From positions 11,469 to 75,468 of the forward strand of contig CAWIQD010000024.1 in NCBI GenBank assembly GCA_963837945.1: 64,000 nucleotides of DNA, given 5' to 3'. The stretch is from an uncultured Acidobacteriota bacterium (GTDB lineage: Bacteria > Acidobacteriota > Thermoanaerobaculia > Multivoradales > DATKCC01). The position numbers and the translations under genes are program-made. The notes beneath the pieces are model-generated. The model was not told the origin of the DNA. It searched no databases and saw only the letters and a list, made by a program, of their open reading frames with translations. This document shows, piece by piece, positions 1-58,028 of this stretch. Within the stretch, counting starts at the first letter, position 1, and each line of letters starts with the position of its first letter.

Positions 1-23
1 GCCAAGGACTTGAGAGGGGTGGA

Positions 24-2621
24 GTGGAAATCGGCGAGGGACCCTTCGGGGGATTGCGACACGGAGCCGTCGGTCGTCGCATCACTGCCTACCTTCGTGG
101 AAATCGGCGAGGGACCCTTCGGGGGATTGCGACATGCATTGCAGTCGCATCAGCGTAGATCTGCTTCGCGTGGAAATCGGCGAGGGACCCTTCGGGGGAT
201 TGCGACACTTCAACTGCTGGCCGTTTGCACGCTTGGCCTCCGTCGGTGGAAATCGGCGAGGGACCCTTCGGGGGATTGCGACATGCGCGTACCATTAGTC
301 CTGGCGTCGGCGAGCTGCTCGGTGTGGAAATCGGCGAGGGACCCTTCGGGGGATTGCGACCGATCGAGCACCAGGTCGGCCGAGCTCCGCCAGGTCTGCT
401 CGGTGGAAATCGGCGAGGGACCCTTCGGGGGATTGCGACACGTTCAGCGCTCGGTCGTCGAACGCCCTCCGTGATCGTGGAAATCGGCGAGGGACCCTTC
501 GGGGGATTGCGACATCGTTCCGCCAGCGTCGCTGTGACCTGCTGCTCCGTGGAAATCGGCGAGGGACCCTTCGGGGGATTGCGACAGAGACGCGTGCATC
601 CGGCGAGCATCCGCCGCCTCGCGTGGAAATCGGCGAGGGACCCTTCGGGGGATTGCGACACAGCACGCGTCGGACTCTGCGCCCGCACGGCTGCGGTGGA
701 AATCGGCGAGGGACCCTTCGGGGGATTGCGACATCGGTGTACTGTCTGGCATCGATGCGTTACCTCCTGTCAGTGGAAATCGGCGAGGGACCCTTCGGGG
801 GATTGCGACACGACTTGCGGCCGACGGTGATCGCGACCAGTACCATCGAAGTGGAAATCGGCGAGGGACCCTTCGGGGGATTGCGACGCTCTAGAGCCGC
901 CGTGAACATCCGGCGGCTTCGGCCGCGTGGAAATCGGCGAGGGACCCTTCGGGGGATTGCGACATCTGACGTACTTTCGCGGCTATCGACGCACCTCATG
1001 GTGGAAATCGGCGAGGGACCCTTCGGGGGATTGCGACAGCTGCCCGTCGAGTCCGATGATGTCATGATCGAGCACCGTGGAAATCGGCGAGGGACCCTTC
1101 GGGGGATTGCGACTTCAGCAACGACCGCCGGCAGTTGTTCGGTCCTCATGTGGAAATCGGCGAGGGACCCTTCGGGGGATTGCGACATTTGACGAAGTCC
1201 AGACCTGTTTTATTCGCACCTCCGGCTCCAGTGGAAATCGGCGAGGGACCCTTCGGGGGATTGCGACATGCTTCGACGACGGCTTCGTGACAACCTCCTT
1301 CCTTGGTGGAAATCGGCGAGGGACCCTTCGGGGGATTGCGACGCTGCAGGTACTGAGTCGACGATGCATCGCATCCAGCGGTGGAAATCGGCGAGGGACC
1401 CTTCGGGGGATTGCGACATTCCGAAGTTCGCCGGGAACGCGGCAGCCGATCGCGTGGAAATCGGCGAGGGACCCTTCGGGGGATTGCGACATTTCGTGAC
1501 GCTGATCTCCGTCCGGAATGCATGATCTGAGTGGAAATCGGCGAGGGACCCTTCGGGGGATTGCGACTCGCAATTCCTCTGACGCTAGAACATCGCGAGG
1601 ATCGGCGTGGAAATCGGCGAGGGACCCTTCGGGGGATTGCGACGGCCGACGACGCACCATGATGCACTCGACCGGTGTCCTGTGGAAATCGGCGAGGGAC
1701 CCTTCGGGGGATTGCGACATTGCAGTCATGAAGATCATCGGCGACCTCCGTGTTGACTGTGGAAATCGGCGAGGGACCCTTCGGGGGATTGCGACCACAG
1801 AAATTGTCGTCGGGAACACCCACCGGATTGACGTGGAAATCGGCGAGGGACCCTTCGGGGGATTGCGACATGATGACGAGGATCGGGTGATAGCACCACC
1901 ATCATGACGTGGAAATCGGCGAGGGACCCTTCGGGGGATTGCGACATGAAACATCCTTCTTTCCCCCGACTGCCATGATTAGAGTGGAAATCGGCGAGGG
2001 ACCCTTCGGGGGATTGCGACATTGGGGCGACAATGGACTCGTCCATGTCGAAGTCAGAGGTGGAAATCGGCGAGGGACCCTTCGGGGGATTGCGACATCC
2101 GCTTGGTCCTGGCATGTTGCGTTGCTCCCTTCGTGGAAATCGGCGAGGGACCCTTCGGGGGATTGCGACATGTTGGTGCGGTCCATCGGAGTCTCCTTTA
2201 TCTGCCGTGGAAATCGGCGAGGGACCCTTCGGGGGATTGCGACATATACCCCCGCACGGAGTCAGTAACGTTGACCCCGTTAGTGGAAATCGGCGAGGGA
2301 CCCTTCGGGGGATTGCGACATCCGACGGTACCGAGATGAAGCCGGACATGGACGTCTCTGTGGAAATCGGCGAGGGACCCTTCGGGGGATTGCGACACTC
2401 GCGTACTGCCTTCGGGGTCCCCGATGGCGTACTGGTGGAAATCGGCGAGGGACCCTTCGGGGGATTGCGACACTGCGCGGAGAAGCTACTGCATAGCTTC
2501 CCTCCTTAGTCTGTGGAAATCGGCGAGGGACCCTTCGGGGGATTGCGACATCCCAGTCCACGCTGGGCACGCGACCGTCCGAGTGGGTGCAGATCGGCGA
2601 GGCACGTCCGCCGGACTTCGT
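24..2621 (+). CRISPR. CRISPR array 1: 34 copies of the 37-nt repeat GTGGAAATCGGCGAGGGACCCTTCGGGGGATTGCGAC with 33 spacers of 35-44 nt, followed by a degenerate terminal repeat at ~2584-2621
   Basis: I counted repeat ends directly at 60, 133, 206, ... 2549, giving a period of ~73-81 nt. The distal repeat GTGGGTGCAGATCGGCGAGGCACGTCC... is degenerate, which places the leader upstream at the window start. The leader-repeat junction CAAGGACTTGAGAGGGGTGGAG is also found in front of array 2. Confidence 0.95.
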
Positions 2622-2827
2622 TGCTCGTAGACAGGTGAGCCCGAGAGGTGGCGGACGGCGGGGCCCGGCCTCTGGCCTCGTGGCCTGGGTCGGGTCAGGT
2701 CAGGCCAGGTGCTGTCCTGACGGGGTGTTGGCAGATCGGCGGCTCTCGGGCGGCGGGGCAGAACCGGGCCGAGGCGCCGCTCCGGCGGCGGCTGGTCGCT
2801 CTCGAGACGGGTGAGCGCCCAAAGCGG

Positions 2828-3058
2828 CTACTCGCCGCCGCGCTTCCGGAGCTCTCGTCTCGCCGCCCGGATCAGGCGATCCCGCGACCACCCGGAGACG
2901 CTCAGGTCGGAGCGCTCCGCCGCTCGGCGCAGGAGCTCCAGGTCCGACTCCCTCATCCGCAGTCGAATCGCCGCCTCGAACCGCTCGGTGGGCCTCTTCT
3001 TGGGGCGAGCCATGGCCGGACTGTAGGCCGATACGATCAGCCCGTCAACCCTTGACAA
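2828..3058 (-). CDS. Small ribbon-helix-helix (RHH, CopG/MobC-like) DNA-binding protein; the alternative start at 3013 gives 61 aa
   Basis: The sequence ARPKKRPTERFEAAIRLRMRESDLELLRRAAERSDLSVSGWSRDRLIRAARREL shows the typical RHH beta-strand plus two helices pattern. Confidence 0.45.
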   Translation of the reverse strand: MSRVDGLIVSAYSPAMARPKKRPTERFEAAIRLRMRESDLELLRRAAERSDLSVSGWSRDRLIRAARRELRKRGGE

Positions 3059-4140
3059 AGGCTTGTTTTTCGGCCTACAATAACCAGATGGTCGATGACC
3101 TGATTCGGGGTGATGGCGCGGGGCGGGAAGGCGGCTCCGGGAGGACCTGTCCCGCGTGCGAGACCCCGGTGATCAAGTACGGCAAGACGGCCGCCGGGCG
3201 CCAGCGGTACTGGTGTCGGAGTTGCCGCAGCACCACGTCGGACGCCGCTCCTCGATCGCCGATCCATCCCATGCGGATTCCGCTCGAGCGCGCGGTGCTG
3301 TGCCTGCGGCTCCTGGTCGAGGGCAGCAGCATCCGGGCGGCCGAGCGGATCACCGGCACCCACCGGGACACGATCGGTCGGCTGCTGCTCCTGGCCGGGG
3401 GGCGGTGCGAGAGGCTCCTCGCCGAGCTGGTGACGGACGTCGAGGTCCACGACGTCGAGACCTCCGAGCTCTGGGCCTTCGTGGGGATGAAGGAGACGAC
3501 CCGGGAGCGGCTGGGCTTGGGCGACCCGCGGGTGGGCGACGCCTACGCGTTTCTCGCCATGGAGCGAGATTCGAAGCTGATCCTCGCCTGGCACCTGGGC
3601 CGGCGCACGGCCGAGCACACGGACGCGTTCGCCGAGAAGCTCGGCCGCGCGACCGCCGGCCGTTTCCAGCTCACGACCAGTGGGCTCGCGGCCTATCGCG
3701 AGGCCGTGAGCTTCCACTTGGGCGAACGCACGGACTACGCGACGCTGGTCAAGGAGGTCGGACCGGGGAAGGGCTCGGACGAGGGCCGCCGGCTGCCTCC
3801 GCGGATCGTGGGCGTGAAGAAGAACCGCGTCCATGGCGATCCGGATCCGGCGCGGGTTTGCACGTCTCACGCCGAGCGCGGAGCGCTGACGTTCCGGATG
3901 CAGTCGCGGCGCTTCACGCGGCGGACGAACGCCTTCTCGAAGTCTTGGAGGCACCACCGTGCGGCCCTGGCGCTCCAGCTCGCTCACTACAACCTCTGCT
4001 GGATGCACGCCTCCATCCGCATGACGCCGGCCATGAAGGCCGGGGTCGTCGGGAGGCCCTGGAAGCTTGAGGAGCTCCTGGCCGACGGGGGATCAGGGCC
4101 CGCGAGCGGGCTCTGATTTCGCCTCGTCGATTCCCGCGAG
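3030..4140 (+). mobile_element. IS1-family insertion sequence (boundaries approximate; imperfect terminal motif ATCAG(AG)CCCG near 3035 and 4120)
   Basis: A single fused InsAB-like transposase ORF. Weak terminal inverted similarity. No clear target-site duplication seen. Confidence 0.45.
3052..4116 (+). CDS. IS1-family transposase (fused InsA zinc-finger/HTH + InsB DDE domain)
   Basis: The N-terminal CPACETPVIKYGKTAAGRQRYWCRSCRST matches the IS1 InsA zinc ribbon (CPSC...NGKSTAGHQRYLCSHCR). The motif ELWAFVGMKE and the C-terminal RRTNAFSKS...HYNLCWMH match InsB motifs. Confidence 0.75.
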   Translation: MTKACFSAYNNQMVDDLIRGDGAGREGGSGRTCPACETPVIKYGKTAAGRQRYWCRSCRSTTSDAAPRSPIHPMRIPLERAVLCLRLLVEGSSIRAAERITGTHRDTIGRLLLLAGGRCERLLAELVTDVEVHDVETSELWAFVGMKETTRERLGLGDPRVGDAYAFLAMERDSKLILAWHLGRRTAEHTDAFAEKLGRATAGRFQLTTSGLAAYREAVSFHLGERTDYATLVKEVGPGKGSDEGRRLPPRIVGVKKNRVHGDPDPARVCTSHAERGALTFRMQSRRFTRRTNAFSKSWRHHRAALALQLAHYNLCWMHASIRMTPAMKAGVVGRPWKLEELLADGGSGPASGL

Positions 4141-4503
4141 CTCGCGGCACATTTTCCGGGCGAGCTCGTGGAGCTCCTGGGCGTAGCGAGCCGCGAAGGC
4201 GCGCAGCCGCGGGCTCGGGCTCCAGTGACCTCGCTGGTCACGCGGCTCGGCGAGCTCTCGGAGGTCTTCGACGCACGCCATCACGTCGGCGACGACCGCC
4301 TCGGTCCACGCGGCGTGCTCATCGCGGCTCGGATCGGGGCCGGTCTGCCAGGTATCCCAGCGCACGTAGTCGGCGAGGATCTTGCCGACCTGCTCGACGG
4401 CCCGCCGGTCGCTCGGGTCCTCGAAGCGCCAGAGGAGAGCCTGACGCATGGCGGTCGGCAGAGGCGGATAGGGCTCGCCCTCGTCATCGACGACCCGGAC
4501 CAT
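4093..4503 (-). CDS. Hypothetical protein (hypB), translationally coupled downstream of radC
   Basis: The start MVRVVDDEGEPY overlaps the radC stop (ATGA). No recognisable domain. Confidence 0.4.
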   Translation of the reverse strand: MVRVVDDEGEPYPPLPTAMRQALLWRFEDPSDRRAVEQVGKILADYVRWDTWQTGPDPSRDEHAAWTEAVVADVMACVEDLRELAEPRDQRGHWSPSPRLRAFAARYAQELHELARKMCRELAGIDEAKSEPARGP

Positions 4504-5225
4504 CACAACAGGCGCCTGTCCCGGAAGGAGGCCCAGCGCTGGGCGCCGCCGAGGATGATGTGGTCCGCGAGCCGGACTCCCACGGCCTCGCACGCCTCCG
4601 CCAGGCGCCGGGTGAAGCGGATGTCTTCTATGGTCGGGGACGGATCGCCCGACGGGTGCGTGTGGAAGACGACCACGCTCTCCGCCGCGCGGTCGAGGGC
4701 GAGAGCGATGATCTGGCGCGGCTCGACCGAGGCTCTCGTCAGCGTGCCGCGGAACAGCTCCGCCATGCCCACGAGCCGCCGCCGGGTGTCGAGGAAGAGG
4801 GCGCCCATCACCTCCTGGTCTCGGAGGACGTAGCGCAGCGCCAAGTAGCGGGCCACCTCGTCTGGCCGCCCCATGGGCTCTCGCTCGGGGACCTCGGCCC
4901 GGGCGAGGCGCCGGGCGAGCTCGAGCGCGGCGAGGACCGAGGCGGCCTTCACCTCGCCCAGGCCGCGGCGCTGGAGGGCCTCGGGGCGGATGCCCACCAG
5001 GCCGGGGAGCCCGGAGGTCTCCTCGAGGATCTCGCGGGCGAGCTCCAGGGAGCAGACGTCGCGCGAGCCGTGGCCCAGGACGAGGGCGAGCACTTCGGGG
5101 TCGGAAAGGGCTTCGCCACCGCTCCGAAGCAGGCGCTGGCGCGGGCGCTCGTCGGGGGGCATCTCCCGGATGAGGCTCGGGAGACCGCTTCTGGAGGGTC
5201 GGGCCCTGGGACGCCGGCGGGCCAT
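4503..5225 (-). CDS. radC: RadC-family JAB/MPN domain protein (UPF0758)
   Basis: Contains the JAMM motif HTHPSGDPSPTIEDIRFTRRL and the conserved RadC N-terminal helix-hairpin region (EVLALVLG). The true start is the internal Met at 5225; the 363-aa track ORF has a spurious N-terminal extension. Confidence 0.85.
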   Translation of the reverse strand: MARRRPRARPSRSGLPSLIREMPPDERPRQRLLRSGGEALSDPEVLALVLGHGSRDVCSLELAREILEETSGLPGLVGIRPEALQRRGLGEVKAASVLAALELARRLARAEVPEREPMGRPDEVARYLALRYVLRDQEVMGALFLDTRRRLVGMAELFRGTLTRASVEPRQIIALALDRAAESVVVFHTHPSGDPSPTIEDIRFTRRLAEACEAVGVRLADHIILGGAQRWASFRDRRLL

Positions 5226-5587
5226 CAGCCGTCCTCCCGGCCGTCGGCCCACTCGGCCCAGTCGGCGAAAGCCGCGGCGAAGTGGCGCTCCAGCTCTTCG
5301 GGCGTCCAGGCGAGGGCCCGGTCGGCGCCGGCGAAGGCGCTGTCCGAGCCCGGCGAGTCCGCCGAGTCCTCGGCGCCGTGGCCCACGACCCAGCAGCGGG
5401 TCGCCTCGGCCGCGAAGAGAATCCGGAAGCGCTCGCGGTCGCCGCCCTCGAGGCCCGTCTCGGCGGGCGGGAGGCAAGAGAGAGTCTCGGCCGCGAGGTG
5501 CAGAAGGCCGAGACCGATGGAGAGGGTGACCCGAAGCTCGTCGTTCGTCGGGTCGGCGGGCGCGATACGATCCCTCAAGCTGCTCAT
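5225..5587 (-). CDS. Hypothetical acidic protein (hypA), first gene of the hypA-radC-hypB operon
   Basis: GAGGAG ribosome-binding site 8 nt upstream of the ATG. Its stop overlaps the radC start (ATGA). No domain recognised. Confidence 0.35.
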   Translation of the reverse strand: MSSLRDRIAPADPTNDELRVTLSIGLGLLHLAAETLSCLPPAETGLEGGDRERFRILFAAEATRCWVVGHGAEDSADSPGSDSAFAGADRALAWTPEELERHFAAAFADWAEWADGREDG

Positions 5588-5982
5588 GAGGCACGCTCCT
5601 CGTGAGTGGTCAGGCCCGGCGGGTCGCTAGCGGCTTCCCGCCGGGCCGCTCCGTGGTTTCCGGGCTCGCATGGCCCCGGCTGTTCGGCCCAACCTACCCC
5701 GCCGTCAAGGCCCAGAGGTAGCCAACACGCCTTTGGGACAGCACTCCTCGTCGCAAGTAGTTGCTCGAAGGGTACGTCTTGCGCTAACCTCCGGGGAGGC
5801 CGAAAACGTGGGGAGGTTAGCGCAGACCCCGGAAAGCGTCGAAGCTCTTTGAAATCAGAGGGTTACCGAGATTCGTCCGGTTCTGGCCTCGCCGGTCTTG
5901 CCCCTCGCCGAGGCCCAGTCTGGGGAGGTTAGCGGAAATGGCCTTCCAACTCACTGAGCCACAAGGACTTGGGAGGGGTGGA
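5588..5982 (+). promoter_or_regulatory. Leader of CRISPR array 2; contains a hairpin GCGCTAACCTCC-N19-GGAGGTTAGCGC (~5781-5823) and a third copy of GGGGAGGTTAGCG at ~5931
   Basis: Non-coding region between the divergent hypA start and the first repeat. Its last 23 nt (CAAGGACTTGGGAGGGGTGGAG) are shared with the array 1 junction. Confidence 0.6.
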
Positions 5983-8900
5983 GTGGAAACCGGCGAGGAA
6001 CCTTTCGAGGGATTGCGACACGAGGCTGCCGAAGATGAGGGTGACTAAGCTCATGAGTGGAAACCGGCGAGGAACCTTTCGAGGGATTGCGACATTCTAC
6101 CGACTCTTTTCAGAGTCTAGGATTTCGCTGTGGAAACCGGCGAGGAACCTTTCGAGGGATTGCGACTGCTCGGAGACGGGATTCATGCACTCTTGCCCTC
6201 CGTGGAAACCGGCGAGGAACCTTTCGAGGGATTGCGACCATTGCGCGACTCCGGCCGCCGCTGTCAGGCTTTCGTGGAAACCGGCGAGGAACCTTTCGAG
6301 GGATTGCGACTACGTCCCTGGCCATCCCTCTCGGCGAACCTGTGGAAACCGGCGAGGAACCTTTCGAGGGATTGCGACCAGTGAGCGTCGACGTCATCCT
6401 TTCTCCGTGGAAACGCAGGTTTCGAGGTGGAAACCGGCGAGGAACCTTTCGAGGGATTGCGACATGTAGCGTGCCGACGATCGAGCTCAGTGCATAGCTC
6501 GGGTGGAAACCGGCGAGGAACCTTTCGAGGGATTGCGACATTGAACTGCGACTCGTCCGCACGAGTCATCTTCCGCTGTGGAAACCGGCGAGGAACCTTT
6601 CGAGGGATTGCGACATGTCTGGGCGTGACGGTCAATCTCCGACTCCTCCTCCGTGGAAACCGGCGAGGAACCTTTCGAGGGATTGCGACCATTGCTCGAT
6701 GCCGGCGTCGCTTTCCGAATTCGAGTGGAAACCGGCGAGGAACCTTTCGAGGGATTGCGACTGTACGACGCCGCGGCCGTTGGTCTCGGCGATCCGGGTG
6801 GAAACCGGCGAGGAACCTTTCGAGGGATTGCGACACTGAAACGTGTCGTCGAGGAATCGGCTATCCTCGCCTGGGTGGAAACCGGCGAGGAACCTTTCGA
6901 GGGATTGCGACATCTTCAGGACACGTCGCGTTCGTGAAGTCGTCGGCTCCTTGTGGAAACCGGCGAGGAACCTTTCGAGGGATTGCGACATGTCCGGAGT
7001 CGGTTCGAGGTCGGCATCGTCACCCTGCGTGGAAACCGGCGAGGAACCTTTCGAGGGATTGCGACATGTCGACTCCTGACCGGCTGACGGGCTGCGATAT
7101 CCTGGGTGGAAACCGGCGAGGAACCTTTCGAGGGATTGCGACGTGATGCACGTCGATCCGATGCAGTCACTGCCGTCTCCGGGGTGGAAACCGGCGAGGA
7201 ACCTTTCGAGGGATTGCGACATCGTCCGACAGGTCGCAGGGCGACTCGTTAGGTGGAAACCGGCGAGGAACCTTTCGAGGGATTGCGACATGTCGATTCC
7301 TGACTCGCTCCGGATGTCGTATGTCCTGTGGAAACCGGCGAGGAACCTTTCGAGGGATTGCGACATGAGAGTCTCCGCGCAGGATGCCGTCTCGTCGAGT
7401 GGAAACCGGCGAGGAACCTTTCGAGGGATTGCGACACTCGAACTCGTCGTCACAGGCCACTGGCGCGTGCTGTGGAAACCGGCGAGGAACCTTTCGAGGG
7501 ATTGCGACATCTCGACGGAACTTGCGCGATCCCGTCGATGCAGTGGAAACCGGCGAGGAACCTTTCGAGGGATTGCGACATCTCAGACGCTGCGTCGCTG
7601 GCATCGCTCGCTGCGTGGAAACCGGCGAGGAACCTTTCGAGGGATTGCGACATCTCGTGGCTTGCATGTCTTCCAATCCTGCTCGACGTGGAAACCGGCG
7701 AGGAACCTTTCGAGGGATTGCGACACTGGATGATCGCTTGTGTTCGTTGATCCTCGTCGAGGTGGAAACCGGCGAGGAACCTTTCGAGGGATTGCGACTT
7801 CAGCGAGGCTTCGCATGACTTAGCATCCTCCGGGTGGAAACCGGCGAGGAACCTTTCGAGGGATTGCGACATTTGCGGCTCCTGCCGAGAGCTCGTTACC
7901 CGAAGTGGAAACCGGCGAGGAACCTTTCGAGGGATTGCGACACTTGACGTGGTCAGGCCGCGAGTCGCCTACTGCGTGGAAACCGGCGAGGAACCTTTCG
8001 AGGGATTGCGACATCTCTGGCACCGCTCGGCGACGGCAGCTCCGTTCATGCGATACCTTGTGGAAACCGGCGAGGAACCTTTCGAGGGATTGCGACCCGA
8101 TGACTGCCAGAGTCTTCCAGAACATCTGCGTTCCGTGGAAACCGGCGAGGAACCTTTCGAGGGATTGCGACATGTCGTCCTGCGCCTGCGTCGGCTTAGT
8201 CGCAGTGTGGAAACCGGCGAGGAACCTTTCGAGGGATTGCGACATTCCGGGCAGTACGCTTTTCTCAGCCTCAACCTTGGGTGGAAACCGGCGAGGAACC
8301 TTTCGAGGGATTGCGACATCGCTCGAGTCGATTCATCTTGGCCTCCTTAAGTGGAAACCGGCGAGGAACCTTTCGAGGGATTGCGACATTCTACGATCCC
8401 GGCTCACTCTTACACGCCCTCCTGTGGAAACCGGCGAGGAACCTTTCGAGGGATTGCGACACGGTCGAGGTCTCGTCGGTGACATGGCCAGTTCTCCACG
8501 TGGAAACCGGCGAGGAACCTTTCGAGGGATTGCGACATACAGGAACTCCCTGTCGACGAGCATGGAGGTCCGAGTGGAAACCGGCGAGGAACCTTTCGAG
8601 GGATTGCGACATCCGAAGGACTGCCCTCGGCCGCGTCGTCGCTGTCTAAGTGGAAACCGGCGAGGAACCTTTCGAGGGATTGCGACACTTGCTGCTGCAC
8701 CCATGGTGCCGCAGCAGACCAGTCGGTGGAAACCGGCGAGGAACCTTTCGAGGGATTGCGACAGCTCTTCCGGGACGCATCCCGAGAAATTCCAACCGAT
8801 CGTGGAAACCGGCGAGGAACCTTTCGAGGGATTGCGACCTTACCTGGCGAAGCGGAGGCCATGCTCTGCGGTCGGGTGGAAACCGGCGAGGAACCTTTCG

Positions 8901-9584
8901 AGGGATTGCGACATTTTTTTCTGCCTCGAGAAGACAAGCGGCTTGCTGTGTGGAAACCGGCGAGGAACCTTTCGAGGGATTGCGACCGTTGTCTCCAACC
9001 GCTCTCCTCCACTCCGTCCACTGAGTGGAAACCGGCGAGGAACCTTTCGAGGGATTGCGACCCATTTCAAGAGAGACCAGTTGACACTGACCCCTCCCGT
9101 GGAAACCGGCGAGGAACCTTTCGAGGGATTGCGACACAATCGTGCGACGGAGAGATCGAAGTGGAGGACTTTCGCCGTGGAAACCGGCGAGGAACCTTTC
9201 GAGGGATTGCGACAGAGACTTGCAGGAATTGGATCATACCATCCTCCTTTTGGGTGGAAACCGGCGAGGAACCTTTCGAGGGATTGCGACTGGTCAGGGC
9301 CTAGGTAGCGGCCGTCGCCGTCGAAGTGGAAACCGGCGAGGAACCTTTCGAGGGATTGCGACAGCTCAACGATGAGTAGTTTCACGACGTCCTCCCGCGG
9401 TGGAAACCGGCGAGGAACCTTTCGAGGGATTGCGACATTGTGCCATCCGGGTGTAGTCCACGCCGTCGCCGGCGCTGGAAACCGGCGAGGAACCTTTCGA
9501 GGGATTGCGACGAGCGCTGGGCGAGCGGTCGATGGTTCCACGTCGAGGTGGAAACCGGCGAGGAACCTTTCGAGGGATTGCGAG
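5983..9584 (+). CRISPR. CRISPR array 2: 49 copies of the 37-nt repeat GTGGAAACCGGCGAGGAACCTTTCGAGGGATTGCGAC with spacers of ~31-43 nt; one 20-nt partial repeat at ~6407-6426; the penultimate repeat has G1->C and the last repeat ends GCGAG
   Basis: Direct counting of repeat ends (6019, 6093, ... 9511, 9584). The repeat differs from the array 1 repeat at 4 of 37 positions (8, 17, 21, 26). The same leader-repeat junction motif precedes it. Confidence 0.95.
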
Positions 9585-9746
9585 CGGTGAGGGTGAGCGC
9601 CGCGGCGCTCGCAGTGGTGATGACTGGCCGAGGCCCAGGAAGAGAAGGCGAGCGGAGCGGCGGTCCGACGCGCGTGGTTCGTTCAGCGTCGGAGCGGTTT
9701 TCGGGCGTTCTGGCGAGGCACAGCCGGATTCGAGGATGGAGCGCGG

Positions 9747-9913
9747 TGATTCCGCCGGCCTGGCGTGTACACCTCGTCTACGCCATTCTCGCCCTCGCCA
9801 GATACCTCCGCACCCTCGCGGCCCGCCGGGACTTCATTGCGGAGGCCCTGGACGACGAGACGCTGGTCCTCTTCGGCCGCACCCAGATGCGTCGCCTGGC
9901 GGGGGCCGGCTGA
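9747..9913 (+). pseudogene. Remnant / short paralog of the 3' end of the 10530..11105 gene (C-terminal peptide ...EALDDETLVLFGRTQMRRLAGAG)
   Basis: About 35 aa and ~130 nt, including the post-stop region, are homologous to the 3' end of the gene at 10530-11105. It lies immediately after the array 2 terminal repeat. Confidence 0.3.
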
Positions 9914-10041
9914 GCCCCTGCTCCCCGACCGGCCGGAACGGCTGATCCCGCCCCGGCCTTCACCATCTTCCCCGCATCGGGCGGGGAGGCGAGTCCATCT
10001 CCGCTCTGCTCGATCGGGCTCGTCCTGAAAGCTCTGGGACC

Positions 10042-10257
10042 TCACCTCGTCGCGTCGATGGAATCCAGGAGCCGTAAGGCTTCGGCCCGGTCCCCCTTCG
10101 CGGCGCGTGCCCGGAACCGCGTCTCGGCATCGAACTCGGCCAGGGCCTGGGTCGAGAGCTCTTCGACGAGGCGGTTCAGGCTGATCTTTCGACGGCGGGC
10201 GAGGTCTCGCAGTCGCTCGTGGGTGTCGTCGGGCAGTCGGATGGTCATCGTTCCCAT
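10042..10257 (-). CDS. RHH-type antitoxin-like protein (CopG/Arc family); no cognate toxin identified
   Basis: MTIRLPDDTHERLRDLARRRKISLNRLVEELSTQALAEFDAE is a classic RHH antitoxin N-terminus. The internal start is at MGTMTIRL. Confidence 0.55.
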   Translation of the reverse strand: MGTMTIRLPDDTHERLRDLARRRKISLNRLVEELSTQALAEFDAETRFRARAAKGDRAEALRLLDSIDATR

Positions 10258-10363
10258 GCGTCCATCTCCTGGAGAAGTGCCTCGGGCTCGAGTACGCGGA
10301 GGTCGGGAAACCGCAGCTCGGTCGCTCGGAAGTCGCGGGCGGCGAGTCCGGCGCCTCTCGGGT

Positions 10364-10392
10364 TTGACTTTCCGCCGCGTCTCCGCTAGGCT
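10364..10392 (+). promoter_or_regulatory. Candidate sigma70-like promoter TTGACT-N17-TAGGCT upstream of the 10530 gene
   Basis: Near-consensus -35 and a plausible -10 with 17-nt spacing, ~140 nt upstream of an ATG that has an AAAGGAGAAA ribosome-binding site. Confidence 0.3.
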
Positions 10393-10529
10393 CGTTCCAA
10401 CGAAGCCGCTTCCCGGCCCCGTCCTCCGCGGAGGCGCGAGGTCACGGGTCACCGGGAGCGAAACGAAAGCGGCCCGGGCGAGCTCGAACCTCACCCGGGC
10501 CTGACCCGCGAAAGGAGAAAGCACCTCCA

Positions 10530-11105
10530 ATGCGAGCCGAGACAGAGAGTAGCAGGACTTCGTCCCCCGCCCGTCGTTCTTCCAGCTTCACCGCGCCGGC
10601 CAACGCCTTCTCGGCCGCGTTCCTCGACGCCGCCCGGCGCCGGCGGGACGCGGCCGAGCCGGAGGACGCCCCGCGCGCTCCGGCGCTCGCCGCCGGCGCG
10701 CTCGCCGCCGGGCCCTTCGAGGTCGAGGCGGTGCCGGCCGGCTCGGGGCGGCTCTGGGCGGTGGTCCGCCGGGGCGAGCGGGTGGCCGAAGGGCACCCGG
10801 CCGTGGCGGTCTTCCTGGAGCGGACGGCCGCCCTCCTGGCGGCGGCGGTGCTGCCGGCGGAGGCGTCGCCCAATCACCTCCAGGTCGGGGAGAAGGCGAA
10901 GCGCCTGGGCCTGCCGGTGCACGACGGCCGGCGCCACCTGGGGCACCTCGCCCGGCCCCACGAGCACTTCGCGCGGGACCTCCACGCCGCCCGGACGCTC
11001 GCGGCCCGCCCGGACTCGCTGGTGCTCCTGGCCGAGGCGCTCGACTACGAGACCCTGGTCCTCTTCGGCCGGGCGCTCATGCGCCGGCTGGAGCGGGCCG
11101 GCTGA
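10530..11105 (+). CDS. Hypothetical protein (191 aa) with a conserved C-terminal motif ALDYETLVLFGRALMRRLERAG
   Basis: Strong ribosome-binding site AAAGGAGAAA. A paralogous remnant lies at 9747-9913. Confidence 0.5.
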   Translation: MRAETESSRTSSPARRSSSFTAPANAFSAAFLDAARRRRDAAEPEDAPRAPALAAGALAAGPFEVEAVPAGSGRLWAVVRRGERVAEGHPAVAVFLERTAALLAAAVLPAEASPNHLQVGEKAKRLGLPVHDGRRHLGHLARPHEHFARDLHAARTLAARPDSLVLLAEALDYETLVLFGRALMRRLERAG

Positions 11106-11207
11106 GGCGCCGGGCGCTCGGCCACCGGCCGGGGCGGGCGCGACCCCGCCCCGGCCGGGTTCTTCCGGTCGTCGGCGCGAGGATACGTCGCTGGGGCCAC
11201 CCGCTCT

Positions 11208-11762
11208 TTACGGCAGCAGATCGGCGACGGCGACCGGTCCCCGGAGGGCCGCCGAGGAGAGCTGCTCGCCGTGGGCCGCGACCCGGTGCTCGGTGAAGCC
11301 GTCGCCTTCGGGCGCTCTGAAGACCTCCAGGCGACCCTCCGCCACGTTCACCAGCCAGACCTCCGGAATGCCGTGTCGCGCGTAGAGCGGGAGCTTGCGG
11401 TGGCGGTCGAAGGCGAGGCTCGAGTCCGCGACCTCCACCACGAGGGCGGCGGTCGCCGGGTGGGCCCCGAGGTAGTCCCGGGGGCGACCTGCGACGACCG
11501 CCACGTCGGGCTCCGGCTCGGAGTCCTGCCCGAGCGCCAGAGGGAGCTGGACCCGGAGACAGTACCCCTCGGCCAGCGCCGCGTCGAGGGCCTCGTAGAC
11601 CAGCTGGATCGTGCCGGCGTGCCGCGCGTTCTGCGGTGTCATCTCCAGGATCTCCCCCTCGATCAACTCGAGCCGCTCGTCTTCCTGGAAGACGCCCTGC
11701 TCGATCAAGCGGTCGTACTCCTCGCGGGTCCACTTGCGGGGCTGGTTGACGGCGACGCTCAC
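11208..11762 (-). CDS. Uma2-family (DUF820) PD-(D/E)XK putative endonuclease
   Basis: RKWTREEYDRLIEQGVF...ERLELIEGEILEMTPQNARHA is the canonical Uma2 N-terminus. Confidence 0.8.
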   Translation of the reverse strand: MSVAVNQPRKWTREEYDRLIEQGVFQEDERLELIEGEILEMTPQNARHAGTIQLVYEALDAALAEGYCLRVQLPLALGQDSEPEPDVAVVAGRPRDYLGAHPATAALVVEVADSSLAFDRHRKLPLYARHGIPEVWLVNVAEGRLEVFRAPEGDGFTEHRVAAHGEQLSSAALRGPVAVADLLP

Positions 11763-11897
11763 AGCTCGGTCTCCTCGGTTGATCAGTATAGCGGCGAGCG
11801 TGTTGCCCTACGGAGGGATCCCTCGACTCGCTGCGCTCGCTCGGGATGACAAGGGGGGGGCGGCGCTCGCTCGGGATGACGGCGAGGGAGCTCGCCG

Positions 11898-14800
11898 TCA
11901 GAACGGGTTGCCGACGGCCAGGTAGAAGTGGAAGCGGGTGGTGGCGCCGGGGTCGGGGTCGAGCTGGTAGCCGAAGCCGGCGCGCACGGGGCCGATCGGC
12001 GAGACGTAGCGCACGGCGACTCCGACGCCGGTCTTGACGTCGCGCGGGTCGACGTCGCGCCAGTCGGGCCAGACGTTGCCCGCGTCCACCCACAGCACGC
12101 CGCCGACCGGCCCCCAGACCGGGAAGCGGTAGTCGAGGTTCGCGAGCAGCAGGCCGTTGCCGCCGCGGCCGCGGCCGTCGGCGAAGAGGGTCGTGCCCGG
12201 GATGCCGAGCTCGTCCTTGCCGTAGGCCCGGTGGCTGAAGTCGCCGCCGGCGAAGAAGCGCTCGTCGATCGGGATCTTCAGGTTCGGCGGCTCGGGGGGC
12301 TGCGGCGCGCCCGAGGGCGTGGTGGTGTTGTTCTTGGTCGCGTCGACGAGCGGCGCGATGGCGCCGAAGCGGATGCTCCCCGCCAGGTGCCCGAAGCCGA
12401 GCGGCAGGTAGCGGGTGTGCTGGAGGAAGGTCTTGAGGAAGTTCGCGTCGGTCAGCCCCGGGATCGGGAACGCCCACTGGAAGCGGGCGCTGGCGCTCCA
12501 GCCGCGGGTCGGGTCGATCGGGTCGTTGCGCCGGTCGACCAGGATGTTGGGGACGACCGAGGAGATGTGGATGTCCTGGTCGCGCCGCTCGATGATCTGG
12601 GTCGGGTCGGTGATCTGCTGGGAGGCGGCGACGGTCAGGGTGGAGTTGATGATCCGGTAGTCGAAGGCGAGGCCGTAGCGCCAGACGTCCTCCTGCTTGA
12701 CCGCCTCGGCCTGGGTGACGATCCGGTCGACGTCGTAGCTCGGCAGCTCCTCCTGCTGGAAGGCCACGTTGTAGACCAGCGGGATGTGCCAGCGGGTCAG
12801 GTCCGGCTGGTCGAGGGCGACCCGGGCGAGGCGCTCCTTCTGGCCGTAGCGCAGGTCGGTCTGGAGGGTGAAGGCGCGGCCGAAGAGGTTGCCCTGGCGG
12901 TAGCCGACGAGCCCGGCGAAGCCGGTGTCCGTGTCGTAGCCGAGGCCGTAGCTCACCCGCCGCGTGCGCCCCTCCTGGACCCGGATCACGACGTCGCGCT
13001 CCTGCTCGGAGAGGTCGGACGGCCCGAGCTCCACCTGGGCGCGCGAGAAGATCCCGAGGCCGTAGAGGTCGCGCTCCGCCTCGAGGAGCCGCGTCGGGCT
13101 GACCGGCTCGCCGGGGTCGAGGTCCACCGCGTGCTCGATCACGTCGTCGTCGGTCTTGACGTTGCCCCGGACGATCACCCGGTCGACCCGGGTCTGCGGC
13201 CCCTCGATCACCTGGATCGTCAGGTCGACCAGGCTGTGGTCGGCGTTCCAGGTCTCGGTCGAGGAGACCTGGGTCGAGAGGTATCCCTTCTCCTCGTAGC
13301 GCCCGCGGATCTGGCGCAGGCTGTCCTCGAGCAGGAGCGGATGGAACGGCCCGCCGGCGTGGAGCGGCAGGTCCTTGCGCAGGTCGTCCTCCGAGAGCGC
13401 CTCGACGCCCTGGAAGGAGAGGTCGACCAGCTGGCGGCGCATCCCCTCCTCGATCGGCACCCTGAGCGTCAGGTTGCGGCCGTCGGCCTGGACGTCCGGC
13501 GGGCCGACCTTGTAGCTGGCGTACCCCTGGAGGGCGTAGAAGGAGCGCACGTTTTCGAGGTCGTCCTGGAGCACCGCGTCGACCAGCTTGCCGCTGCCCA
13601 GGGTGAGGAGTCGCTTGGGCTTGGTCTCCATGAGCTCGGCGAGCTTGCCGTCGCTCACCTGCCGGTTGCCGTCGAAGCGGATCTCCTGGAGGGTGTAGAC
13701 CGGGCCGGGCTCGACCCGGAAGGTGAGCCGGAGCGCGCCGTCCGCCGTCGTCTCGTCCCAGGTGACCGCGACCTTCCAGTGCCCCTTCTCCTGGTAGTAG
13801 CGCTTGACCCGGTCGGCCGCCTGGAGCACCAGCGCCTCGTCGTAGCCGTCCTCGCCGAGGAACGGCAGCAGGTCGTTTTTCTCGAGCTCCTTGCGCGCGA
13901 CGCCCACGATCTCCACCGTCACCAGCGGGCCGAGGGTCACCGGGTAGGCGAGGTCGACCCGGTGGCCCTCGCGGTCCTGGGTCTCCTTGGCCTCGCCGAC
14001 CTGCGCCTTGCGGTACTTCTGCTTGACCAGCCAGGCCTGGAGGCGCTCGGCGTCGTCGTCGACGGTGTCGCGGAGGTAGGGCTCGCCGGGGCGGGCGCGG
14101 AGCTGCTCGACGAGGGTCGCGGGCCGGAACGAGCCCAGCTCGCCCTCGAAGCTCACCGTGCCGATCGTCGAGCGCGCTCCGGCCGCGACCTCGAAGGTCA
14201 CCACCGAGCGCTTGGTCTCGTCGTTCGTGTCGACGGCGAGGTGGACCCGGGCGGAGAAGTAGCCGCGCTTCTCGAACAGGTCCTGGAGGCGGTAGACGCT
14301 CCTGAGCAGCCGGCTCTCGATCAACGGCTGGCCGGCGGCGACCAGCAGCTCGCTCTCGAGGTCGTGGCGGTCGAGCTTGCCGGTCTCGCCCACGACCGAG
14401 ACCTCGTCGACCTGCACCGCGGCCCAGACCGCCACCACCACGACCACCTGCTCGGCCGCCGGGTCGGAATCGACCGGCACGGCGGGCGGCGCGAGCCGCT
14501 CGCCCGGCTCGGCGGGACGGGTGTAGAGCTCCACCTCGTAGGCCGCGCCGGTCGCCTGGAGGTTGCGCAGGGTCCGGCGCACCCCGCGGTCGGTGAGCCG
14601 CGTGCCCGGCTCGATCGCGATCAGCTGGCGCAGCTCGCCGGCCGGCCCGAGCGGGGCGTCGCTTCGCACCTCGATGCGGGCGACGACCGGCCCGCGGCCG
14701 GCGACCGGCCCGGGCAGCGCCGGCGGCGCCTCGTCCCCCGCCACGACCACGTCGGGCGGCTCGACGGTCTCGACCGGCGGCTCGCGGGGCGGGATCGCCG

Positions 14801-15011
14801 GGCCCTCGACCGTCGTCGCGTCCTCGGGAGAGAGGACCGGGGCCGGCTCGGGCGCCGGCGGCGGCGCCTGGTCCTGGGTCGGATCGGGGGCCTGAGCCCG
14901 GGCCTGATCCTGGTCCTGGCCCCGGGCCGGGGCGCCCGCCAGCAGCAGCGCGGCGAGGAGCCCGGGAGCCGAGCTCCGGAGCAGGAGCCGGAGTGCGCCG
15001 CGCGCCGTCAT
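11898..15011 (-). CDS. tamA: Omp85-family outer membrane protein TamA/BamA-like, with a POTRA region, a long Pro/Ala/Gln-rich N-terminal linker and a C-terminal beta-barrel ending VGNPF
   Basis: POTRA-like repeats and the surface-antigen barrel motifs (RVSYGLGYDTDTG...GFGYQLDP). The start ATG overlaps the tamB stop (ATGA). Confidence 0.75.
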   Translation of the reverse strand: MTARGALRLLLRSSAPGLLAALLLAGAPARGQDQDQARAQAPDPTQDQAPPPAPEPAPVLSPEDATTVEGPAIPPREPPVETVEPPDVVVAGDEAPPALPGPVAGRGPVVARIEVRSDAPLGPAGELRQLIAIEPGTRLTDRGVRRTLRNLQATGAAYEVELYTRPAEPGERLAPPAVPVDSDPAAEQVVVVVAVWAAVQVDEVSVVGETGKLDRHDLESELLVAAGQPLIESRLLRSVYRLQDLFEKRGYFSARVHLAVDTNDETKRSVVTFEVAAGARSTIGTVSFEGELGSFRPATLVEQLRARPGEPYLRDTVDDDAERLQAWLVKQKYRKAQVGEAKETQDREGHRVDLAYPVTLGPLVTVEIVGVARKELEKNDLLPFLGEDGYDEALVLQAADRVKRYYQEKGHWKVAVTWDETTADGALRLTFRVEPGPVYTLQEIRFDGNRQVSDGKLAELMETKPKRLLTLGSGKLVDAVLQDDLENVRSFYALQGYASYKVGPPDVQADGRNLTLRVPIEEGMRRQLVDLSFQGVEALSEDDLRKDLPLHAGGPFHPLLLEDSLRQIRGRYEEKGYLSTQVSSTETWNADHSLVDLTIQVIEGPQTRVDRVIVRGNVKTDDDVIEHAVDLDPGEPVSPTRLLEAERDLYGLGIFSRAQVELGPSDLSEQERDVVIRVQEGRTRRVSYGLGYDTDTGFAGLVGYRQGNLFGRAFTLQTDLRYGQKERLARVALDQPDLTRWHIPLVYNVAFQQEELPSYDVDRIVTQAEAVKQEDVWRYGLAFDYRIINSTLTVAASQQITDPTQIIERRDQDIHISSVVPNILVDRRNDPIDPTRGWSASARFQWAFPIPGLTDANFLKTFLQHTRYLPLGFGHLAGSIRFGAIAPLVDATKNNTTTPSGAPQPPEPPNLKIPIDERFFAGGDFSHRAYGKDELGIPGTTLFADGRGRGGNGLLLANLDYRFPVWGPVGGVLWVDAGNVWPDWRDVDPRDVKTGVGVAVRYVSPIGPVRAGFGYQLDPDPGATTRFHFYLAVGNPF

Positions 15012-18000: not shown

Positions 18001-19073
18001 ATGCCGTCCGGGACGACGCGCAGCTTGCCCGAGACGTCGGAGAGCACCCGGCGGTCCTGGACCAGGCGGCGCGACGAGAGCCCGCCCTCGACCGCCCAGC
18101 CCTCGGGCCGCCAGAGCAGGCTGCCGTCGAAGCGGAAGGGGCCGGAGACCGGCGGCTCCTCGGCGTCGAGATACCCGAGGTCGGCGGCGAGCGCGACCTG
18201 GCCCTCCGCCGAGAGCTCGAGGTCCAGGCGCCGCGTCTCCTCCGGCACGAGGAGCGTGCCGTGGGCGGTGAGCCGGAGGTCCGGCCCGGTCAGCCGGGAC
18301 TCGACGATCTCGACCCGCTCGGGTCCGACCCGCACCTTGCCCGAGAAGGCCGCCACGTAGTGCTTCCCCGGCGGCAGCGTCACCTCCACCTCCTGGGCGG
18401 TGGCGAGCCCTTCGAGCTCGTTGCCGCCCTGGCCGCCGGTGCCGACGAGGCGGGCGAAGACCGCCTGGGCCCGGAGGTCGAACGGCAGCTCGAGCGTGTC
18501 GAGGTGGAAGCGCCCCTGCTCGGCGACCACGGCGCCGATCCGCACCTGCACCCGCCCGCCGCCGCCCTGGCCGGTGCCGAAACGGGGCAGGTTGTTCGAG
18601 CCGTCCTCGCGCACCTCGAGGTAGACCTCGGGGCGCTCGACGAAGACCTGGGTGATCTCGATCCGCGGCCGGTTCCAGCTCTCCCAGCCCTCGATCCGGG
18701 CGTGCAGGGTGAGCTGGGGGACGCGGGCCACGGGCGGCGCTCCGGGCCGGTCGCCCGGGATCACCACGTCGTCGAGCTCGATCGAGATCGGGTAGAGGGT
18801 CCAGTGGACGGCGCCCACCGAGAGGTCGCGCCCGAAGTAGCTCGAGAGGCGGGCCACGAGGAGGCCGCGGGCCCTCTCGCGCGCGCCTGGGCTCTGGAGC
18901 CAGACGTAGGCGCCGGCCACCACCAGGACCAGGAGGACCAGCAGGTAGACGACGCTGCGCAGCAGGCAGCCGCGGGCGCACCCGGTCCTCTGCCGGCGCG
19001 GGCCCTCGTCGCCGAGGCGCTCCGGGGCCTCCTCCCCGCCCGTGCCGGGCCGGGTGAGCTCCTCGTCGCTCAT
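15011..19073 (-). CDS. tamB: TamB/AsmA-like translocation and assembly module protein (DUF490 C-terminus ...IDARWDKRF); an apparent 1-nt frameshift near 17060 splits it into 19073-17057 and 17062-15011
   Basis: The N-terminal 672 aa in one frame and the C-terminal 683 aa in the adjacent frame are both clearly TamB-like. The junction ...LAGLETDLL/IADLSFD sits at a short A/T run. Confidence 0.7.
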
Positions 19074-33279: not shown

Positions 33280-33588
33280 GTGCCACCCCCTCGTCCTGCC
33301 GGGATGGGGGTGCGGGTGGTCCGGAGCTTCCTCCGTCACGTGGAGGGATAAATGAGCTGCATCCCCCGCGCAGCCGTGTGGACTGCCGCGCCTAGAACCT
33401 TAAGCGCCAAGTGGGTGTCCGCGCCACCGGCCATCAGCGTCCCCGTTCGAGCGGGGCTGGCACAGTCCGGCGGGTGAAGACTCCCTAGTTGTATATGTTG
33501 GTTCTACCATGGGTTGGCCCATCACGAACCACGCAGGGGATGCAAACTCTTCGACCTTCGTCATATCTCTAGGACGGCCACCGGTGGA
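33280..33588 (-). ncRNA. Candidate non-coding RNA region between zapA and rny (possibly 6S/SsrS-like by synteny)
   Basis: A ~310-nt intergenic region with locally reduced GC (...CTAGTTGTATATGTTGGTTCTACCATGG...). 6S RNA commonly lies immediately downstream of zapA. No structure verified. Confidence 0.2.
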
Positions 33589-50896: not shown

Positions 50897-50914
50897 GACT
50901 GCTAAGATCCGCTC

Positions 50915-51853: not shown

Positions 51854-51910
51854 GAGCTCAGGAACGGCGCCTCCCCGATCCAACACCTACGCTCCCGAGA
51901 TTCAGCCGTC

Positions 51911-55202: not shown

Positions 55203-55219
55203 TACCATCCCGAGCCGTG

Positions 55220-57238: not shown

Positions 57239-57350
57239 AAGCCGACGAGGCCCAGCTCGTCCAGACTATCCTCGCATCCCCAAAGGCAAGCGTCGGTCCT
57301 CGTAGTTTCGCAGGGTAGCGTCCAAGGCGCTCAGGAAGCGCTGCTGCCCG

Positions 57351-57707
57351 TCAGTTGCACCCGATATCCACGTATTGGGTTTCGTTGTCCCCGAAGTAAT
57401 CTCCGTGCCTGATGTTTCCGCGAGAGGCAACCAGAAAGATTTTGTGGTGTCCTGCGGGCAACTGCTTGGAGGTCGTCTCGCCCCCGGAGAAGCCGTTGGC
57501 ACCATCGTCGAATGTCCAGGCGTAGGTTTCGACCTCACCAGTCGTACAGCTGGCGTCGAGAGCGCAGTACCCGCCGCACGTGCATGCCACATCGAAGCAG
57601 GCCGTGATGCCTCCACTTGCTTCTGCCGGCGACGGCGCGCTGGCTGACAGCACCAGAATCGAAAGGGAGGACAAGAGAACGAGAAGAACTGAGCGCTTCA
57701 TTGGCAT
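57351..57707 (-). CDS. Small secreted Cys-rich protein (118 aa) encoded in a low-GC insert
   Basis: Signal peptide MPMKRSVLLVLLSSLSILVLSASA. The mature part has 7 Cys (CFDVACTCGGYCALDASC...DIGC). Local GC ~55% versus ~70% elsewhere. Confidence 0.4.
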   Translation of the reverse strand: MPMKRSVLLVLLSSLSILVLSASAPSPAEASGGITACFDVACTCGGYCALDASCTTGEVETYAWTFDDGANGFSGGETTSKQLPAGHHKIFLVASRGNIRHGDYFGDNETQYVDIGCN

Positions 57708-58001: not shown

Positions 58002-58028
58002 GCCACTGAGGCTGCGCACCGGGCCGGC

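What the first reader, a model, noticed from the sequence alone, without database searches (positions are those of the whole stretch)
24..9584. Two large same-orientation CRISPR arrays (33 + ~49 spacers) with sibling repeat variants and no recognisable cas gene within 64 kb
Both arrays read on the + strand, and each is preceded by the same 23-nt leader-repeat junction. The repeats differ consistently at 4 of 37 positions, so these are two diverged sister arrays, not one array split by the IS. None of the ORFs in the window resembles Cas1, Cas2, Cas6, Cas10, Cas3, Cas7 or similar. The cas operon is therefore either upstream of the window's left edge, serving array 1 directly, or absent (orphan arrays). 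Array 2 is then separated from any cas locus by array 1, an IS1 element and a radC operon.
Basis: seen in the sequence. Interest (0 to 1): 0.6.

Follow-up and report, generated by a model that had tools for sequence, protein, structure and literature searches.

The report
Two type III-B CRISPR arrays, no cas
These are two real CRISPR arrays of an uncultured soil Acidobacteriota bacterium whose relatives place the same repeats beside a type III-B (Cmr) immune operon; that operon lies outside this window, so the finding is ordinary, though many array 2 spacers look unreliable or oddly diverged.

Summary
Array 1 (24-2549) has 34 identical 37-nt repeats and 33 spacers. Array 2 (5983-9584) has 49 repeats and 48 spacers. 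The two repeats differ at positions 8, 17, 21 and 26. Both arrays read on the + strand. Pfam scans of the called genes and PADLOC scans of all 164 ORFs of at least 100 aa found no cas gene. The only Cas-like hits are the HD domain of RNase Y.

Relatives identify the system. A closely related MAG has cmr1, cas10/cmr2, cmr3-6, TIR-SAVED and CHAT-SAVED directly upstream of radC and the array 2 orthologue. Another contig has the same operon upstream of an r1-type array with the same leader. So these are type III-B arrays.

In the window, array 1, an RHH gene and an IS1-like gene sit where that MAG has the operon. The breakpoint lies inside a gene that is intact only here, so the MAG looks like a deletion derivative.

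The inter-array block looks like a mobile-element remnant rather than a recent IS1 insertion. Whether this genome still has the operon cannot be settled.

Array 2 spacers 1-37 are collinear with the MAG's spacers but only 61-97% identical. The differences are indel-rich. This is probably assembly blending, and less probably real divergence.

The parts
1..23 (+). Last 23 nt of the leader of array 1 (r1-type leader end ...AAGGACTTGAGAGGGGTGGA). The rest is cut off by the window edge.
   Evidence: It is 20/23 identical to the array 2 junction. Its last 20 nt are identical to the leader end of the r1 array in L008.
24..2549 (+). CRISPR array 1: 34 identical 37-nt repeats (variant r1) and 33 spacers of 35-44 nt.
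2828..3058 (-). Small ribbon-helix-helix protein, weakly NikA/MobC-like. Part of the mobile-element remnant between the arrays.
   Evidence: Frame plot. Pfam NikA-like at E 0.0038, below the cut-off. It is conserved next to the transposase gene and radC in L004.
3052..4116 (+). IS1-like transposase gene (354 aa; InsA-type zinc ribbon plus a distant DDE domain).
   Evidence: NF033558 scores 66.5 bits against a cut-off of 100, and both Pfam hits are below gathering scores. No flanking inverted repeats were found.
4093..4506 (-). Gene X (137 aa, no family). It is intact here and truncated at window position 4344 in the relative MAG.
4503..5225 (-). RadC-like JAB protein (240 aa).
   Evidence: Pfam RadC at E 1e-33 and UPF0758_N at E 8e-19. 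The exact sequence is shared with the relative MAG.
5225..5587 (-). Gene Y (120 aa, no family). It is the partner of radC. The Y-radC pair also occurs in plasmid or ICE-like contexts without arrays.
5761..5982 (+). Conserved part of the leader of array 2. The intergenic region is 5588-5982.
   Evidence: 85% identical to the leader of the r1 array in L008. No sigma-70 consensus was found.
5983..9584 (+). CRISPR array 2: 49 repeats (variant r2) and 48 spacers of 31-48 nt.
6407..6426 (+). Partial, degenerate repeat (GTGGAAACGCAGGTTTCGAG) at the end of 'spacer 6', directly abutting the next full repeat. It marks the junction between the block of spacers 1-6 and the block of spacers 7-37.
9475..9584 (+). 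The two terminal repeats, each with one substitution (trailer end). The C37G variant of the last repeat is shared with the relative MAG.

Best explanation
Both features are genuine CRISPR arrays of one type III-B (Cmr) system. Each array has its own leader on the left and is read on the + strand.

The following steps are inferred, not shown. The precursor transcript is cut in each repeat to leave the 8-nt 5' tag AUUGCGAC. The crRNAs load into a Cmr1-6/Cas10 complex. On pairing with a complementary transcript, that complex cleaves the RNA through Cmr4, and its Cas10 cyclase (GGDD motif, no HD domain) makes cyclic oligoadenylate. The signal switches on TIR-SAVED, CHAT-SAVED and, in one relative, a CARF-HEPN-mCpol effector.

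The effector operon is not in this window. The ancestral order was most likely cmr operon, leader, array 1 (r1), mobile-element remnant (RHH, IS1-like transposase, X, RadC, Y), leader, array 2 (r2). The closest relative lost the stretch from just after TIR-SAVED to the middle of gene X. In this genome the arrays are therefore served by cas genes beyond the left edge or elsewhere, or they have recently become orphans.
For: Shown:
- The arrays, their orientation and the repeat variants.
- The degenerate repeats lie only at the right end.
- A conserved 222-nt leader lies on the left.
- In relatives, arrays with exactly these repeats are co-oriented with and downstream of cmr genes. L007/L001 has Cmr1, Cas10/Cmr2, Cmr3 (Pfam E 4.5e-51), Cmr4 (TIGR02580 E 1e-46), Cmr5, Cmr6 (TIGR01898 E 5e-43), SAVED_TIR (E 4.7e-66) and CHAT+SAVED, followed by radC, Y, the leader and an r2 array.
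- L008 has an intact cmr1-6, with a 574-aa Cmr2 carrying GGDD, followed by SAVED, CARF_HEPN_mCpol, the leader and an r1 array.
- Outside the arrays, window 4344-5982 is 99.2% identical to L007 and 9585-11897 is 97-100% identical. Identity stops abruptly at 4344, inside gene X.
- X keeps coding-type GC3 through the part that is missing in L007.

Inferred: the deletion scenario, Cas6 processing and the cOA signalling steps. The last rests on established knowledge of type III-B systems with TIR-SAVED and SAVED-CHAT effectors (PMC9704534; 10.1101/2022.05.04.490601; 10.1101/2023.06.23.546230).
Against: - No cas gene is in the window.
- The source contig is 91,873 nt. None of the 120 best Cmr3 homologues lies on a contig of that length, and the 90% cluster of the relative's Cmr3 holds one sequence only. 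A closely related cmr operon is therefore not recorded for this assembly.
- No cas6, cas1 or cas2 was found in the roughly 5 kb upstream of the cmr operon or in the flanks downstream of it in the relatives. Processing and adaptation therefore remain unexplained.
- cas10 of the closest relative carries a frameshift.
- No spacer target was found.
Confidence: 0.7

Rival explanations
1. Orphan arrays. This strain has lost the cmr operon, for example through the rearrangement that placed the RHH and IS1-like block here. The arrays persist without any effector.
For: No cas gene lies in 64 kb. No Cmr3 at least 78% identical to the relative's is recorded other than the relative's own, although proteins of the source contig are in the same database. 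The region between operon and leader differs in every genome examined.
Against: All 83 repeats are intact, with 81 identical to their consensus, which would not be expected after long neglect. MAGs are incomplete, and the contig probably begins at the array. Relatives with the same repeats keep the operon.
Confidence: 0.3
2. One ancestral array was split in two by insertion of the mobile-element block at 2550-5982.
For: Both arrays have the same orientation and related repeats. Mobile-element-type genes lie between them.
Against: The four repeat differences are fixed in every copy on each side. Array 2 has a full leader homologous to that of an r1 array elsewhere, and array 1 has its own leader end. 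r1-only and r2-only arrays exist in other genomes. Only one spacer pair is similar between the two arrays.
Confidence: 0.04
3. The collinear but diverged spacers of array 2 are an assembly artefact. Reads from co-existing array variants in a long-read metagenome were piled up on the identical repeats, and the polished consensus of spacers 1-37 is a blend.
For: - Array 2 spacers 1-5 match L007 spacers 1-5, and spacers 7-37 match L007 spacers 1-32, in order, at 61-97% identity. The flanks are 99-100% identical and every repeat is perfect.
- k-mer sharing peaks only on offsets 0, +5 and +6.
- The differences are indel-rich. Close spacer pairs show 45 substitutions against 29 indel events. The flanks show 416 substitutions against 5.
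- Spacer length has sd 3.48 in this block against 1.15 in the relative (Levene p 4e-4). The unshared spacers 38-48 have sd 1.74.
- In close pairs the differences cluster at the spacer ends.
- There is a weak second register at +3.
Against: The flanks show no sign of poor consensus. Only two spacers look chimeric. The +3 signal is weak and offset -3 is similarly raised. The raw reads are not available, so the artefact is not shown directly.
Confidence: 0.5
4. The spacer divergence is real. Array 2 is an old, vertically inherited array with little or no new acquisition. Its spacers drifted while the repeats stayed under selection, and it was later reshaped by recombination between diverged array alleles. 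On this view spacers 1-6 are a second, closer copy of the block that starts at spacer 7.
For: The two genomes are mosaic. The adjacent TamA-like gene is 85-93% identical, with 81% identity at third codon positions, so neutral DNA could be about 25-30% diverged. Transversions outnumber transitions both in the spacers and in real gene divergence. A partial repeat marks the block junction. No adaptation genes lie near the operon in relatives.
Against: Only the window's copy has abnormal spacer lengths. The indel-to-substitution ratio is far above that of the flanks. Spacers 1-5 are about 12% diverged next to a leader that is 99% identical. The trailer-end spacers are unrelated, although the terminal repeat variant and the trailer are shared.
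Confidence: 0.3

Closest known systems
Type III-B (Cmr) CRISPR-Cas loci with cOA-activated TIR-SAVED and SAVED-CHAT effectors (review PMC9704534; TIR-SAVED 10.1101/2022.05.04.490601; type III-B proteolytic cascade 10.1101/2023.06.23.546230; survey PMC11229360)
   Same: Relatives with the same repeats carry cmr1-6 with a GGDD Cas10, a TIR-SAVED protein and a CHAT+SAVED protein. The repeat ends in an ATTGNNAC-type 8-nt handle.
   Different: None of these genes is in the window. No cas6, cas1 or cas2 was seen next to the operon in the relatives. The handle is AUUGCGAC, whereas the commoner form recalled from memory is AUUGAAAC/G.
Isolated or distant CRISPR arrays, and arrays shared between systems (PMC7145637; Marinomonas type III-B using type I-F arrays, PMC5576922)
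   Same: Large arrays without an adjacent cas operon. Two arrays with related repeats are presumably served by one effector.
   Different: Here the absence may simply reflect the window or contig edge. A co-resident second system is not known.
Mycobacterium tuberculosis DR locus (type III-A array that changes mainly by spacer loss and IS6110 insertion; from my own knowledge, not checked here)
   Same: A type III array with little sign of new acquisition and a transposase gene in the locus.
   Different: M. tuberculosis spacers stay identical between strains. Here the shared spacers differ by 3-39%, which may be an artefact.

Membership tests
CRISPR array | Many near-identical direct repeats of 23-50 nt at regular spacing, separated by unique spacers of similar length | tested here: met
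   34 and 49 repeats of 37 nt, with spacers of 31-48 nt. No duplicated spacer was found within or between the arrays.
CRISPR array | Conserved leader on one side and degenerate terminal repeat on the other | tested here: met
   The array 2 leader 5761-5982 is 85% identical to the leader of an r1 array in L008. The last two repeats are mutated. Only 23 nt of the array 1 leader are visible.
Type III-B (Cmr) CRISPR-Cas locus | cas10/cmr2 plus cmr1, cmr3, cmr4, cmr5 and cmr6 next to the array | tested here: not met
   These genes are absent from the window. The feature is met in the relatives L007 and L008, which carry identical repeats. The arrays are therefore assigned to type III-B by association only.
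Type III-B (Cmr) CRISPR-Cas locus | crRNAs with an 8-nt 5' tag from the repeat 3' end, made by Cas6 | not testable with these tools
   The repeat ends in ATTGCGAC. No cas6 was found in the window or in the flanks of the relatives. No RNA data are available.
Type III-B (Cmr) CRISPR-Cas locus | Spacers complementary to transcripts of mobile elements | tested here: inconclusive
   No target was found in phage records, IMG/VR or the window. The reverse complement of 27 of 81 spacers carries a Shine-Dalgarno-plus-start motif, against 8 in the spacer sense and a mean of 10.7 in shuffles. In-frame stops are not depleted.
Orphan CRISPR array | No cas genes anywhere in the genome | not testable with these tools
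   Only 64 kb of a 91,873-nt contig of a MAG is visible.
IS1 family insertion sequence | Transposase reaching the family's curated score | tested here: not met
   NF033558 scores 66.5 against a cut-off of 100. Pfam DDE_Tnp_IS1 scores 19.1 against 24.1, and Zn_ribbon_InsA scores 23.9 against 26.1.
IS1 family insertion sequence | Terminal inverted repeats flanking the transposase gene | tested here: not met
   No convincing flanking pair was found in 2540-4700. The best flanking pair (20 nt, 85%) lies inside neighbouring genes.
RadC-like JAB protein | RadC JAB domain with the UPF0758 N-terminal domain | tested here: met
   Pfam PF04002 at E 1e-33 and PF20582 at E 8e-19.

The most novel reading that the evidence does not exclude
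Array 2 is a long-lived, vertically inherited type III array. Its 30-odd spacers have kept their order while diverging 3-39% between lineages, and every repeat has stayed identical. This would mean selection on crRNA production without ongoing adaptation. The spacers might be co-evolving with a resident element, or the array might have a regulatory role aimed at the starts of genes.
Probability: 0.15. Interest if true: 0.65.

Novelty: new member of a known kind. Interest (0 to 1): 0.3.

Why it matters
It adds a type III-B locus with TIR-SAVED and CHAT-SAVED effectors from uncultured Acidobacteriota (Thermoanaerobaculia-like) to the known range. It also shows how one locus differs between close relatives: both arrays here, array 2 directly behind the operon in one relative, and an r1 array behind the operon in another.

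The practical lesson concerns spacers from long-read metagenome assemblies. Array 2 spacers 1-37 may be blended consensus sequences and should not be used for host-virus matching without checking the reads. If the divergence were real instead, it would be an unusual case of a CRISPR array evolving like an ordinary inherited locus.

Tried and rejected
1. Fetching the DNA left of the window. Exact-protein look-ups for window proteins returned nothing.
2. Scanning metagenomes for the repeat gave only two short contigs. One has an IS3 element 50 nt upstream of an r1 array.
3. Spacer targets. There were no credible hits in 50,697 phage records, no exact matches of three conserved spacer cores in IMG/VR, and no self-targets in the window or the loci.
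4. Purine skew of the spacers as evidence for antisense targeting. Dropped, because host sense strands are themselves 48% purine.
5. A leader-like sequence after either array. The similarity is not above shuffles.
6. 'Spacers target translation starts'. The orientation-specific motif excess is real. In-frame stops after the putative starts are not depleted, so this is only suggestive.
7. The repeat hairpin. The predicted stems are no more stable than in shuffles. In the alternative CCC-UUCG-GGG hairpin the changes at positions 21 and 26 would be compensatory, but that hairpin is not the predicted optimum.
8. No Rfam CRISPR-DR family matches the repeat.
9. Y-radC as a CRISPR-linked module. Rejected, because the pair occurs without arrays in mobile-element contexts.
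Full report
**Observation**

An exact parse shows array 1 at 24-2549. It has 34 identical copies of a 37-nt repeat (r1) and 33 spacers. Array 2 lies at 5983-9584, with 49 copies of a sister repeat (r2) and 48 spacers. r1 and r2 differ at positions 8, 17, 21 and 26 in every copy. Only the last two repeats of array 2 carry a mutation, so the trailer is on the right and the leader on the left. No other copy occurs in the window.

The visible 23 nt before array 1 match the junction before array 2 at 20 of 23 positions.

**Is a cas gene hidden in the window?**

The window is 70.6% G+C, so I called genes with a codon model. I scanned the called genes with Pfam. I also scanned all 164 ORFs of at least 100 aa outside the arrays with PADLOC.

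Downstream of array 2 the genes are housekeeping or envelope genes:
- HicB-like, Uma2, TamA/TamB, NAD kinase and TlyA
- PagL, glycosyltransferases and PIN
- RNase Y, 6S RNA, ZapA and YmdB
- four sulfatase-TPR paralogues

The weak Cas10/Cas3 hits are the HD domain of RNase Y. A PADLOC 'PrimPol' hit from two ORFs could not be mapped. Nine candidate genes tested singly gave nothing. The remaining long genes have clear non-cas Pfam identities.

**What lies between the arrays**

The block holds five genes:
- a small RHH protein (2828-3058, -)
- an IS1-like transposase (3052-4116, +), below all curated cut-offs and without flanking inverted repeats
- gene X (4093-4506, -)
- RadC (4503-5225, -)
- gene Y (5225-5587, -)

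The Y-RadC pair occurs elsewhere beside NikA/MobC and RHH genes with no array. In a Thermoanaerobaculia MAG the RHH gene, the transposase gene and radC are neighbours at 81-84% identity. The block therefore looks like a remnant of a mobilisable element, not a fresh IS1 insertion.

**Relatives identify the system**

A genome scan with the repeat found an Acidobacteriota MAG (MFD01721.bin.1.239). Its locus (L001/L003/L007) reads as follows:
- CHAT+SAVED
- cmr1
- cas10/cmr2, with one frameshift
- cmr3-6
- TIR-SAVED
- a truncated X, then radC, Y, the leader and an r2 array

A second contig (L008) has an intact cmr1-6, with a 574-aa Cmr2 that carries GGDD and no HD domain. These are followed by SAVED, CARF-HEPN-mCpol, a weak Csx3-like ORF, a solitary degenerate r2-like repeat, a toxin-antitoxin pair, a leader 85% identical to the window's, and an r1 array.

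Both repeat variants thus belong to a type III-B system with cyclic-oligoadenylate effectors. This kind is described in PMC9704534, 10.1101/2022.05.04.490601 and 10.1101/2023.06.23.546230. No cas6, cas1 or cas2 lies near these operons.

**History of the locus**

Outside the arrays the window is 99.2% identical to L007 over 4344-5982 and 97-100% identical over 9585-11897. Identity falls to 85-93% in the TamA-like gene. It stops sharply at 4344, inside X.

X is intact, with coding-type GC3, in the window. In L007 it is truncated. The simplest reading is that L007 lost the stretch from just after TIR-SAVED to mid-X. That stretch in the ancestor held the leader, array 1, the RHH gene and the transposase gene. 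This favours an operon upstream of array 1.

Against this, the source contig is 91,873 nt and no close Cmr3 is recorded on it. The relative's Cmr3 cluster also has a single member.

The contig may begin at the window's first base. In that case L008-like sequence could be its collapsed upstream neighbour. This is inference.

**Spacers**

- They are 59% G+C, against 70.6% for the window.
- They start with A in 60 of 81 cases.
- The reverse complement carries a Shine-Dalgarno-plus-start motif in 27 of 81, against 8 in the spacer sense and a mean of 10.7 in shuffles. Open reading frames after those starts are not favoured.
- No targets were found.

**An unexpected pattern**

Array 2 spacers 1-5 match L007 spacers 1-5. 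Spacers 7-37 match L007 spacers 1-32, in order, at only 61-97% identity. Of 43 spacer pairs scoring above the 99.9% null quantile, 35 lie on offsets 0, 5 or 6. 'Spacer 6' ends in a partial repeat. The trailer-end spacers are unrelated.

The differences are indel-rich. Close pairs show 45 substitutions against 29 indel events, whereas the flanks show 416 against 5. In close pairs the differences cluster at the spacer ends. They go with abnormal spacer lengths only in the window's copy: sd 3.48 against 1.15, p 4e-4.

I judge consensus blending of co-existing array variants in a long-read metagenome assembly the likelier cause (about 0.5). Real drift plus recombination of an old array is possible (about 0.3). 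Only the raw reads can decide.

**Verdict**

This is an ordinary pair of type III-B arrays seen without their operon. It is a new member of a known kind, with a caution about the fidelity of the array 2 spacers.

Noticed in passing
window 6020-8725 (array 2 spacers 1-37) versus L007 16815-19151: The spacers are collinear with those of a relative whose flanks are 99-100% identical, yet they are only 61-97% identical to them. The differences include many 1-2-nt indels. Array 2 spacers 7-11 also resemble spacers 1-5.
   Followed up: partly
window arrays, all 81 spacers: The spacers start with A in 60 of 81 cases, usually followed by a pyrimidine, and have pyrimidine-rich 3' ends. The reverse complement often starts with a Shine-Dalgarno-like motif followed by a start codon. 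The excess is specific to that orientation.
   Followed up: partly
window 33359-33542 (-): A 6S RNA gene (Rfam RF00013, 79.3 bits) lies between the RNase Y and ZapA genes.
   Followed up: no
window 11898-19073 (-): One 2391-aa ORF spans a TamB-like N-terminus and a TamA/BamA-like C-terminus. The TamB C-terminal domain scores in another frame (15014-17062). This could be a frameshift or an accident of high G+C.
   Followed up: no
window 32119-64000: PADLOC 'PrimPol' (CRISPR-associated primase-polymerase model) was hit by two ORFs at E 4.3e-8. Pfam shows no primase domain in the called genes.
   Followed up: partly
window 44827-63834: Four paralogous sulfatase-TPR proteins lie among PMT-type glycosyltransferases, TPR proteins and FG-GAP proteins.
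   Followed up: no
window 9746-9913 and 10530-11105; repeats 9813-9914 / 11005-11106: A 55-aa ORF just after array 2 repeats the 3' end of the 191-aa ORF about 1.2 kb further on, at 75% identity over 102 nt. Both copies are also present in the relatives.
   Followed up: no
window 26367-27476 (-) and 11208-11762 (-): An M78-peptidase protein matches the PADLOC RmrA and CapP models. The Uma2 nuclease matches candidate defence family PDC-S03. HicB-like and PIN genes lie nearby.
   Followed up: no
L007 8291-10004: cas10/cmr2 of the closest relative is split by a frameshift near 9339-9358, whereas the L008 orthologue is intact. This is either a pseudogene or an assembly error.
   Followed up: partly
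L008 10376-10412: A solitary degenerate r2-type repeat lies between the cmr operon and the r1 array. It suggests that a lost r2 array once stood there.
   Followed up: no
L005 756-2293: An IS3-family element sits 50 nt upstream of an r1 array in a metagenome contig. It has replaced the usual leader.
   Followed up: no
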